Assembly (NCBI RefSeq): GCF_046105845.1
Contig: NZ_CP151004.1
Origin: Escherichia coli
GTDB lineage: Bacteria > Pseudomonadota > Gammaproteobacteria > Enterobacterales > Enterobacteriaceae
Direction: 5' to 3' (one strand)
DNA length: 64,000 nucleotides
In this document: piece by piece, positions 6,604-6,626 of the stretch
Numbering within the stretch: the stretch's first letter is position 1
Layout: every line of letters starts with the position of its first letter
Made by a program: the position numbers and the translations under genes
The notes under the pieces: model-generated
What the model saw: the letters and a program-made list of their open reading frames with translations, nothing else
The model's database searches: none
What the model was told of the DNA's origin: nothing

Positions 6604-6626
6604 GGCAGACAGTTTCCTGTCTGCCG
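6604..6626 (-). terminator. stem-loop immediately downstream of hcp (putative partial terminator or attenuator inside the T6SS operon)
   Basis: GGCAGACAG-nnnnn-CTGTCTGCC hairpin with 9-bp stem, 7 bp after the hcp stop, followed on the minus strand by a T-rich stretch (TTTCTGTT). Confidence 0.35.

What the first reader, a model, noticed from the sequence alone, without database searches (positions are those of the whole stretch)
6604..6626. Strong hairpin directly after hcp inside the T6SS operon
A 9-bp-stem hairpin 7 bp after the hcp stop, followed by a T-rich stretch, could partially terminate or stabilise the hcp transcript. That would give higher Hcp levels than the downstream clpV and vgrG, matching the stoichiometry of a tube protein.
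Basis: inference. Interest (0 to 1): 0.25.

Follow-up and report, generated by a model that had tools for sequence, protein, structure and literature searches.

The report
Conserved terminator hairpin after hcp
The hairpin is real and conserved across enteric bacteria, and it most likely acts as a leaky transcription stop and protective RNA end after the type VI secretion tube gene hcp; this kind of element is already known, and an already described RfaH loading site lies about 100 bases downstream.

Summary
On the minus (coding) strand, GGCAGACAG-GAAA-CTGTCTGCC (6625-6604) starts 7 nt after the hcp stop codon and is followed by TTTCTGTTGTGTGG.

A perfect 9-bp hairpin is not rare by chance. 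This one is the only terminator-scoring site on the sense strand from tssB to the end of clpV. RNAalifold recovers it independently in 43 hcp-clpV spacers from Enterobacterales, with compensatory changes in 6 of 10 pairs. Its wobble pairs fit only the sense RNA.

The hairpin is the first part of a conserved spacer of about 130 nt. The order is terminator-like hairpin with U-tract, a second long hairpin, a JUMPstart-like stem, then a perfect ops site (6501-6490) 47 nt before the clpV start. That ops site is already published as ops1, the RfaH loading site of the EAEC Sci1 cluster.

Best reading: a leaky intrinsic terminator that also protects the hcp mRNA 3' end. Polymerases that read through load RfaH at ops. 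An RT-PCR break at the hcp-clpV junction in Klebsiella, and hairpins studied after hcp in Yersinia and EHEC, are precedents.

Whether it terminates or only stabilises is unresolved. It is a new member of a known kind, of modest interest.

The parts
6633..7124 (-). hcp (T6SS tube protein, 163 aa). Stop codon TGA at 6635-6633, followed in frame by TAA.
   Evidence: Pfam T6SS_HCP, E 5e-37. RefSeq annotation in 1305 E. coli genomes.
6604..6625 (-). HP1, the reported hairpin: GGCAGACAG-GAAA-CTGTCTGCC, 9 perfect pairs, dG -16.6 kcal/mol.
   Evidence: Pair probabilities of at least 0.92 when the whole spacer is folded. Predicted independently by RNAalifold on 43 spacers. 95% of cells paired and 6 of 10 pairs with changes on both sides.
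6590..6603 (-). T/U-rich tract TTTCTGTTGTGTGG directly after HP1. Most E. coli carry TTTTTG here.
   Evidence: In 60 of 69 ops-bearing spacers a T-rich tail (at least 5 of 8) follows the hairpin.
6544..6599 (-). HP2, a second long hairpin (core 6589-6555: TTTGC-C-CAGTGCCG / loop CAGGCAC / CGGTACTG-A-GCAAA). Its 5' arm uses part of the U-tract and its 3' side is A-rich.
   Evidence: Per-sequence folds in 43 species. 85.5% of cells paired and 11 of 15 core-helix pairs with changes on both sides.
6490..6525 (-). JUMPstart-like stem (6525-6522 pairs with 6508-6505) and a perfect 12-nt ops element GGCGGTAGCGTG (6501-6490) on the non-template strand. This is the RfaH loading site.
   Evidence: Exact match, the only one in the window. 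Weak Rfam JUMPstart hit of 17.8 bits, below the 35-bit threshold. Stem covariation in 3 of 4 pairs. Orthologous to the functional ops1 of EAEC Sci1 and to the RfaH ChIP site at tssH in CFT073.
3797..6442 (-). clpV/tssH (881 aa), the first gene after the spacer. Its ATG lies 47 nt after ops.
   Evidence: Pfam AAA_2, ClpB_D2-small and Clp_N. RefSeq tssH annotation.

Best explanation
HP1 is a sense-strand RNA hairpin that works as a leaky intrinsic (Rho-independent) terminator at the end of the promoter-proximal unit tssB-tssC-tssK-tssL-tagL-hcp.

Proposed steps:
1. When RNA polymerase reaches the U-rich tract, the GC-rich stem forms and a large share of transcripts is released there.
2. The hairpin stays at the 3' end of those transcripts and shields hcp mRNA from 3'-to-5' exonucleases.
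3. Polymerases that read through transcribe a second hairpin and a JUMPstart-like stem, then pause at ops 102 nt downstream and load RfaH.
4. RfaH carries them through clpV, vgrG and the distal genes.

The net effect is much more hcp (and sheath) mRNA than clpV/vgrG mRNA.

Shown here: the structure, its orientation, its uniqueness in the operon, its conservation and covariation, and its fixed register with ops. Shown by others in orthologues: RfaH and ops dependence of the genes downstream of the EAEC ops1 site, read out by a reporter after clpV, and a transcript break between hcp and clpV in Klebsiella. Inferred: that release happens at HP1, how efficient it is, and the protective role.
For: Anatomy:
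- 9-bp GC-rich stem, GNRA loop, U-rich tail, same strand as hcp, 7 nt after the stop.
- Only positive terminator score on the sense strand over 9.2 kb of operon (+18, next best -30). The commoner E. coli allele TTTTTG scores +38.8.

Conservation:
- RNAalifold finds HP1 on its own.
- Pairs 26:46 (GC 22 / AU 21), 30:42 (AU 24 / GC 17), 23:49 (AU/UA/GC/GU) and 28:44 (AU/GU/GC) covary. All measures beat the shuffled and slid controls.
- The wobble pairs are G-U in the hcp sense (about 20 cells) with almost no A-C, so selection acts on the sense RNA, not on a DNA palindrome.
- In 60 of 69 ops-bearing spacers a hairpin plus T-run ends 89-131 nt (median 101) before ops.
- In 16 of 43 spacers the first 4 or more U's after HP1 are not paired in HP2, so the U-tract is kept for its own sake.

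No alternative source of downstream transcription:
- No sigma-70-like site lies between HP1 and ops in the window or in EAEC 042. Polymerases reaching ops therefore most simply come by read-through.
- EAEC 042 has the same HP1, U-tract, HP2 and ops1. There, ops1 or rfaH mutation cuts expression after clpV but not at tssC-tssK.

Orthologue experiment:
- K. pneumoniae RT-PCR shows tssB through hcp as one unit, with the hcp-clpV junction negative.
Against: - There are no 3'-end, coverage or half-life data for this locus or for any T6SS cluster of this type.
- The window's U-tract is interrupted (UUUCUGUU), which predicts modest efficiency.
- In Y. pseudotuberculosis T6SS4, mutating the stem after hcp4 lowered only hcp4 mRNA and did not raise downstream genes, so there it is a stabiliser and not a terminator.
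- The U-tract is partly shared with HP2, so some of its conservation could serve HP2.
- Pseudomonas orthologues keep a strong hairpin after hcp with no T-run. The ancestral role may therefore be protection rather than termination.
- The K. pneumoniae spacer sequence was not examined here. Two other Klebsiella species were: K. oxytoca (L002) carries HP1 directly after the stop, and K. michiganensis (L023) carries a weaker terminator-like hairpin (one mismatched pair) downstream of an ERIC-like insertion.
- The terminator score formula was recalled from memory.
Confidence: 0.6

Rival explanations
1. HP1 is a pure 3'-protective hairpin (a decay terminator). Polymerase does not stop at it. The polycistronic RNA is cut downstream by an endonuclease, for example RNase III in the long HP2 duplex or RNase E. 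Exonucleases then trim back to HP1, leaving a stable hcp mRNA while the distal RNA decays.
For: This was the experimental outcome for the stem-loop after hcp4 in Y. pseudotuberculosis T6SS4. Part of the EHEC h3R result points the same way, since hcp3 mRNA falls when the hairpin region is deleted. HP2 is a conserved duplex of 15-20 bp right after HP1 and is a plausible RNase III substrate. Pseudomonas orthologues have the hairpin without a T-run. P. putida hcp1 mRNA exceeds tssB1 mRNA with no internal promoter.
Against: A protective hairpin needs no U-tract. Yet a T-run follows HP1 in 60 of 69 spacers, often beyond what HP2 pairs with. The anatomy is that of a canonical terminator. No cleavage site has been mapped. 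This reading does not exclude termination, and both can be true.
Confidence: 0.22
2. HP1 is a full terminator that ends the operon, and clpV-vgrG and the genes after them are a separate unit driven by their own promoter located between HP1 and ops.
For: The CFT073 study treats ops as lying in the 5' leader of a tssH operon and speaks of potential tssH promoter regions. The K. pneumoniae study concluded that clpV is transcribed independently. EHEC has a predicted promoter after the hcp3 terminator.
Against: No sigma-70-like site lies on the sense strand between HP1 and ops in the window or in EAEC 042. I found no convincing -10/-35 or sigma-54 match by eye in the conserved consensus. A promoter search in Klebsiella found one upstream of tssB but none for tssH. 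The roughly 100 nt between HP1 and ops are taken up by a covarying RNA hairpin. In Klebsiella the clpV-vgrG junction was also RT-PCR negative; in this window clpV and vgrG are only 11 nt apart, and if the Klebsiella spacing is similar that points to low abundance rather than separate units.
Confidence: 0.1
3. HP1 is a chance inverted repeat, a copy of a repeated element (REP/ERIC type), or a DNA palindrome bound by a dimeric regulator.
For: Perfect 9-bp hairpins arise about 1.4 times per shuffled window. Symmetric changes in the two half-sites of an operator could mimic covariation.
Against: There is a single copy in the window, even allowing 3 mismatches. It sits at the same place across more than 40 species, with covariation. 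Its G-U wobbles exist only in the sense RNA and would be A-C mismatches in a DNA palindrome. A T-run is conserved on one side only.
Confidence: 0.03

Closest known systems
ops1 / RfaH control of the EAEC Sci1 T6SS (bioRxiv 10.1101/2025.02.08.637259); RfaH ChIP at tssH in UPEC CFT073 (PMC9765446)
   Same: Same gene order (tssB-tssC-tssK-tssL-tagL-hcp-clpV). Same perfect GGCGGTAGCGTG in the hcp-clpV spacer. The EAEC 042 spacer aligns with the window and carries its own HP1 (GACGGACAGG-GCAT-CCTGTCCGTC plus ATTTTTATTTTTT) and HP2.
   Different: The EAEC preprint describes only ops and RfaH; the words hairpin, stem-loop and terminator do not occur in it. The CFT073 paper was not searched for those words; the passages read describe only ops and RfaH. 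The element upstream of ops is what is added here.
GC-rich stem-loop directly after hcp4 in Yersinia pseudotuberculosis T6SS4 (PMC12503267)
   Same: A hairpin immediately after hcp inside a polycistronic T6SS cluster. hcp mRNA is far more abundant than the downstream genes. It was proposed to tune tube-protein stoichiometry.
   Different: Different cluster type (hcp4 is followed by tssE4, and no ops is reported). Chromosomal stem mutation lowered hcp4 mRNA only, so the authors call it a 3'-protective loop and not a terminator. No orthology with HP1 is shown.
h3R, the hcp3-vgrG3 intergenic regulatory region of EHEC (PMC13141884)
   Same: A predicted terminator hairpin starts at +8 after the hcp stop. 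Deleting it lowers hcp mRNA. hcp and the next gene behave as separate units.
   Different: Different T6SS cluster and neighbour gene (vgrG3). A predicted promoter follows the terminator. RfaH and ops are not mentioned.
Intra-operon attenuating terminators and intercistronic decay-terminator hairpins (rplL-rpoB attenuator, puf operon hairpin, papBA). Named from established knowledge; the puf and pap papers are cited in the reference list seen.
   Same: A hairpin between cistrons gives the upstream, structurally abundant product more mRNA than the downstream genes.
   Different: None of these is followed by a dedicated antiterminator loading site about 100 nt downstream.
JUMPstart RNA (Rfam RF01707) / ops leaders of rfb, waa, kps and hly
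   Same: A short stem followed by GGCGGTAGCGTG in an untranslated region. The 47 nt from ops to the start codon fall within the 40-67 nt reported for wzx, kps and rfa.
   Different: It scores 17.8 bits against a 35-bit threshold and is not detected at all in 7 other species. It sits between cistrons rather than after a promoter.

Membership tests
Intrinsic (Rho-independent) terminator | GC-rich stem-loop of about 5-14 bp with a short loop | tested here: met
   9 perfect pairs, 6 of them G-C, 4-nt loop, dG -16.6 kcal/mol.
Intrinsic (Rho-independent) terminator | U-rich tract immediately 3' of the stem on the transcribed sense strand | tested here: met
   TTTCTGTT has 6 of 8 T, with the first three contiguous. 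It is interrupted by C in this strain and reads TTTTTG in most E. coli. T-rich tails occur in 60 of 69 related spacers.
Intrinsic (Rho-independent) terminator | Lies downstream of a stop codon, in the same orientation as the gene | tested here: met
   7 nt after the hcp TGA on the minus strand. No T-run follows on the plus strand.
Intrinsic (Rho-independent) terminator | RNA 3' ends or transcript release at the U-tract | not testable with these tools
   Indirect only: the RT-PCR break at hcp-clpV in K. pneumoniae.
3'-protective (decay-terminator) hairpin | Stable hairpin at the 3' boundary of the more abundant mRNA segment | tested here: inconclusive
   The hairpin is present and conserved. 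Relative abundance was not measured for this cluster.
3'-protective (decay-terminator) hairpin | Upstream mRNA level or half-life falls when the stem is disrupted | not testable with these tools
   Shown only for non-orthologous hairpins in Yersinia and EHEC.
RfaH-ops / JUMPstart leader (applies to the neighbouring element, not to HP1) | 12-nt ops consensus GGCGGTAGnnTG on the non-template strand in untranslated RNA | tested here: met
   Exact GGCGGTAGCGTG at 6501-6490 on the minus strand, the only exact copy in 64 kb. It lies between hcp and clpV.
RfaH-ops / JUMPstart leader (applies to the neighbouring element, not to HP1) | Reaches the Rfam JUMPstart gathering score | tested here: not met
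   17.8 bits against 35. No hit in 7 other loci.
RfaH-ops / JUMPstart leader (applies to the neighbouring element, not to HP1) | Downstream expression depends on RfaH and on ops | not testable with these tools
   Shown for the EAEC orthologue and by RfaH ChIP in CFT073.
Repeated extragenic elements (REP/BIME, ERIC) | Many dispersed copies of the same palindromic unit | tested here: not met
   One copy in the window with up to 3 mismatches allowed.
Leader-peptide or antiterminator-type attenuator | A conserved short ORF, or an alternative structure that competes with the terminator before it forms | tested here: not met
   The ORF from the conserved ATG varies from 2 to 82 codons, in different frames, with no Shine-Dalgarno sequence. 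The only complementary partner of the HP1 arms lies downstream in HP2 and is not consistently conserved (median z about -1).

The most novel reading that the evidence does not exclude
HP1, HP2, the JUMPstart-like stem and ops form one conserved intercistronic switch of about 130 nt that stops transcription and then reloads the polymerase. By default the intrinsic terminator ends transcription after hcp. Together with the untranslated, tightly folded spacer, it frees the elongation complex from the trailing ribosome and NusG and keeps Rho off the RNA. This would let RfaH load in the middle of an operon, which it reportedly cannot do inside translated regions. RfaH availability would then gate synthesis of ClpV, VgrG and the baseplate half of the machine, while sheath and tube genes follow the tssB promoter alone. 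Supporting observations: the hairpin-to-ops distance is fixed (89-131 nt), and an ERIC-like element inserts between the hcp stop and HP1 in 13 loci but never between HP1 and ops.
Probability: 0.3. Interest if true: 0.55.

Novelty: new member of a known kind. Interest (0 to 1): 0.3.

Why it matters
A T6SS needs hundreds of Hcp and sheath subunits for each ClpV hexamer or VgrG trimer, yet the genes lie in one cluster. A leaky terminator and 3' stabiliser after hcp is a simple way to set that ratio.

This study shows that such a signal is conserved across Enterobacterales in clusters with the tagL-hcp-clpV gene order. It also shows that the signal sits in fixed register with the RfaH loading site that others have shown to be needed for the distal genes.

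This has three consequences. It explains why RT-PCR splits the Klebsiella cluster at hcp-clpV. It suggests that the published ops1 and rfaH phenotypes should be read together with an upstream terminator. It gives concrete mutations to test. It is not a new principle: hairpins after hcp and ops1 itself were both described in 2025-2026.

Tried and rejected
- Repeated element: only one copy of the hairpin in the window with up to 3 mismatches. Rejected.
- Known RNA family: Rfam gave only a sub-threshold JUMPstart hit next to the hairpin, not on it, and nothing at E <= 0.1 in 7 other loci.
- Internal sigma-70 promoter between HP1 and ops: none on the sense strand in the window or in EAEC 042. By eye, the conserved CACAAT has no usable -35, and the GGCAC...GC spacing does not fit sigma-54. 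This is an inspection, not a tool result.
- Conserved leader peptide from the conserved ATG in GACCTTATGCGC / CCTGATGGGCC: length 2-82 codons, frames differ, no Shine-Dalgarno sequence. Rejected.
- Alternative pairing between the HP1 arms and HP2: an 8-nt perfect match exists in the window (I2). Across 43 spacers it is not consistently better than shuffles (median z about -1; 13 and 11 of 43 below -2). HP1 persists with probability of at least 0.92 in the full spacer fold. Inconclusive, and it cannot act before termination anyway.
- A hairpin on the other side of hcp, as in Yersinia: the tagL-hcp spacer has a 7-bp hairpin in E. coli (7176-7158), but that spacer is only 0-32 nt in most other species and the hairpin is not conserved.
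- DNA operator palindrome: disfavoured by the sense-only G-U wobbles.
- K. pneumoniae spacer sequence: not retrievable with the collections left to me. The link between its RT-PCR result and HP1 rests on two other Klebsiella species (L002, L023).
- A covariance model of the module was prepared but not built, because the direct counts already answered the question.

Full report
**What is there**

The first 13 kb of the window hold the promoter-proximal half of an E. coli type VI secretion cluster, all on the minus strand:

| Gene | Coordinates |
|---|---|
| tssB | 13045-12518 |
| tssC | 12465-10921 |
| tssK | 10903-9566 |
| tssL | 9569-8904 |
| OmpA-family tagL-like gene | 8891-7182 |
| hcp | 7124-6633 |
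| clpV/tssH | 6442-3797 |
| vgrG | 3785-1296 |

The same hcp-clpV region is present in 1305 of 5426 complete E. coli genomes. The island lies next to a tRNA-Asp gene.

Between the hcp stop codon and the clpV ATG are 190 untranslated bases. On the coding strand they begin TAACTGC, then GGCAGACAG-GAAA-CTGTCTGCC (6625-6604), then TTTCTGTTGTGTGG. The hairpin has dG -16.6 kcal/mol. The 66-nt context folds better than its shuffles (z = -2.6).

**Is it more than chance?**

Taken alone, barely. Perfect 9-bp hairpins occur about 1.4 times per shuffled window and at 7 places in the real one. The count of terminator-like sites in 20 kb is not above shuffles.

Position and uniqueness change that. It is the best terminator-like site in 20 kb. 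I also applied a classical terminator score (hairpin energy per base plus a weighted T-tail; the formula is recalled from memory). By that score it is the only positive site on the sense strand from tssB to the end of clpV: +18, with the next best at -30. It is a single-copy sequence, not a repeated element.

**Conservation**

I fetched 80 loci encoding close Hcp relatives from other species. Nearly all have the order tagL-hcp-clpV.

- In 43 non-redundant spacers of normal length, RNAalifold predicts exactly this hairpin on its own.
- On a structure I specified, 95% of cells in HP1 are paired and 6 of 10 pairs show changes on both sides. Examples are column pair 26:46 (GC in 22, AU in 21) and 30:42 (AU in 24, GC in 17).
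- Every whole-structure measure exceeds the shuffled and slid controls.
- The non-Watson-Crick cells are G-U in the hcp sense (about 20) and almost never A-C. Selection is therefore on the sense RNA, not on a DNA palindrome.
- A T-rich tail follows in 60 of 69 spacers that carry ops.
- In 16 of 43 spacers the first four or more U's are not used by any other predicted pairing.
- Within E. coli the stem-loop was identical in all the sequences I sampled. The tail is polymorphic: TTTCTG in the window and two strains, TTTTTG in the commoner type, which scores higher at +38.8.

**What surrounds it**

The Rfam scan gave a weak JUMPstart hit at 6520-6490 (17.8 bits, threshold 35). The sequence there is GGCGGTAGCGTG (6501-6490), a perfect ops element and the only exact copy in the window. 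It lies on the non-template strand, 47 nt before the clpV ATG.

This site is already known:
- A 2025 preprint found it as ops1 between hcp and clpV of the EAEC Sci1 cluster. Mutating ops1 or rfaH sharply lowers a reporter placed after clpV but not one placed between tssC and tssK. The authors also noted that ops is conserved at this position in other enterobacteria.
- RfaH ChIP in UPEC CFT073 lacking H-NS and StpA also found a tssH-associated site.

I located the EAEC 042 cluster. Its spacer has its own HP1 (GACGGACAGG-GCAT-CCTGTCCGTC followed by ATTTTTATTTTTT), a second hairpin, and ops1. HP1 is the top terminator-like site there too. The preprint does not use the words hairpin, stem-loop or terminator.

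**A conserved module**

The alignment shows four elements in fixed order:
1. HP1 with its U-tract.
2. HP2, a 15-20-bp hairpin whose 5' arm begins in the U-tract and whose 3' side is A-rich (core helix 85.5% paired; 11 of its 15 pairs with double changes).
3. A short JUMPstart-like stem (96% paired; 3 of 4 pairs with double changes).
4. ops.

The end of HP1 lies 89-131 nt (median 101) before ops. In 13 loci HP1 starts more than 60 nt after the hcp stop. In the spacers I read, the extra DNA is an inserted element of about 125 nt or more that resembles ERIC (recognised from memory of the ERIC consensus). The insertion is always between the hcp stop and HP1, never between HP1 and ops. By contrast, the tagL-hcp spacer is 0-32 nt in most species and holds no conserved structure.

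Pseudomonas orthologues keep a strong hairpin after hcp but have no T-run and no ops. Two Serratia loci keep HP1 and HP2 with a degenerate ops.

**How it most likely works**

The anatomy is that of an intrinsic terminator in the correct orientation, so the simplest mechanism is partial termination after hcp. The hairpin would then remain as a protective 3' end.

ops lies downstream of HP1, so RfaH cannot suppress this terminator. I found no other ops on the sense strand upstream, and the EAEC tssC-tssK reporter is independent of RfaH. No promoter-like site lies between HP1 and ops in the window or in EAEC. The polymerases that load RfaH at ops are therefore most simply those that read through HP1.

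An experiment in an orthologous cluster fits this. In K. pneumoniae NTUH-K2044, RT-PCR joins tssB through hcp into one unit but fails across hcp-clpV (also noted). It also fails across clpV-vgrG. In this window those two genes are only 11 nt apart; if the Klebsiella spacing is similar, that suggests very low abundance after hcp rather than separate promoters.

I did not inspect the K. pneumoniae sequence itself. K. oxytoca (L002) carries HP1 directly after the hcp stop. K. michiganensis (L023) carries a weaker terminator-like hairpin, with one mismatched pair, downstream of an ERIC-like insertion.

**Rivals**

- Pure stabiliser. [quoted passage not shown] Only hcp4 mRNA fell, and the authors concluded it is a protective 3' loop and not a terminator. 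In EHEC, deleting the hairpin region after hcp3 lowered hcp3 mRNA, and hcp3 and vgrG3 fused into one unit only when the next region was also removed. HP1 could therefore be mainly or only a stabiliser, with HP2 as a candidate cleavage site. The conserved U-tract argues for at least some termination. I give the pure-stabiliser reading about 0.2.
- Full stop plus a separate clpV promoter: about 0.1.
- Chance or a DNA operator: about 0.03.

**Novelty**

The idea that a hairpin after hcp raises hcp mRNA over the downstream genes has been tested in two other T6SS clusters. The RfaH site next to this one is published. A 2023 review of T6SS regulation mentions neither terminators nor RfaH, so this is recent knowledge.

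Three points appear to be undescribed:
- This particular hairpin in clusters with the tagL-hcp-clpV order.
- Its conservation with covariation.
- Its fixed register with HP2 and ops.

I rate it a new member of a known kind, with modest interest.

The most novel reading still open is that the four elements act as one switch that stops transcription and then reloads the polymerase, letting RfaH load in mid-operon. That rests on the fixed spacing and the pattern of insertions only.

**Dead ends**

- No conserved leader peptide.
- No consistent alternative pairing between HP1 and HP2.
- No Rfam family for HP1 or HP2.

Noticed in passing
window 6490-6525 (minus strand): Perfect ops element GGCGGTAGCGTG (6501-6490) preceded by a JUMPstart-like stem, 102 nt downstream of the hairpin and 47 nt before the clpV ATG. 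It is orthologous to the published RfaH site ops1 of EAEC Sci1.
   Followed up: yes
window 6544-6599 (minus strand): A second conserved long hairpin (HP2). Its 5' arm starts in the U-tract of the first hairpin and its 3' side is A-rich. It covaries in 43 species. Its function is unknown; candidates are an RNase III site, a block to Rho loading, or part of the RfaH leader.
   Followed up: partly
window 6590 and 6600; L082-L085: The U-tract is polymorphic in E. coli: TTTCTG here, TTTTTG in the commoner type. None of 1289 complete genomes matches the window's 70-nt stretch exactly. In the five sequences aligned, the window alone has G rather than C at 6590, and that G breaks one outer pair of HP2.
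   Followed up: partly
L006, L016, L023, L034, L062, L067 and seven other loci (L035, L043, L056, L058, L060, L063, L066): between the hcp stop and the hairpin: In 13 loci HP1 starts more than 60 nt after the hcp stop. In the spacers I read in full (L006, L016, L023, L034, L062) the extra DNA is an inserted element of about 125 nt or more that resembles ERIC/IRU (judged from memory of the ERIC consensus). It is always upstream of the hairpin and never between the hairpin and ops.
   Followed up: partly
L015, L032, L049, L059, L065, L078-L080 (Pseudomonas): The same tagL-hcp-clpV order with a very stable hairpin after hcp (dG down to about -35 kcal/mol), but no T-run and no ops.
   Followed up: partly
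L013, L017 (Serratia oryzae, Serratia sp. Ag1): HP1, the U-tract and HP2 are kept, but ops is degenerate (GGACAGTAGCGT and GGGCCATAGCGT). This is a possible natural loss of RfaH control.
   Followed up: no
window 7158-7176 (minus strand), tagL-hcp spacer: A 7-bp hairpin (ACCGCCG...GGCGGT region) lies upstream of hcp. It is specific to the E. coli type; in most species this spacer is only 0-32 nt.
   Followed up: partly
L001; L006, L007, L071 compared with L008, L072: A contig labelled Entomohabitans teleogrylli carries an Hcp 100% identical and a ClpV 99% identical to the E. coli window. Two contigs labelled Chryseobacterium sp. 18061 (L007, L071) have hcp-clpV spacer hairpins identical to those of Citrobacter sp. 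18056 (L008, L072), and a third (L006) also carries an enterobacterial-type tagL-hcp-clpV locus. These are probably contaminated or mislabelled assemblies, or recent transfer.
   Followed up: no
window 17399-17475, 25621-25697, 29191-29385: A tRNA-Asp gene lies next to the T6SS island. A second tRNA-Asp and a tRNA-Ala/tRNA-Ile pair lie in a stretch without long ORFs (about 25.5-32.1 kb), which looks like a ribosomal RNA operon.
   Followed up: no
window 38588-38613, 51189-51210, 21825-21849, 18723-18748, 29290-29310, 10701-10725: Other perfect hairpins of 9 bp or more in the window. They were not examined, and some may be terminators of neighbouring genes.
   Followed up: no
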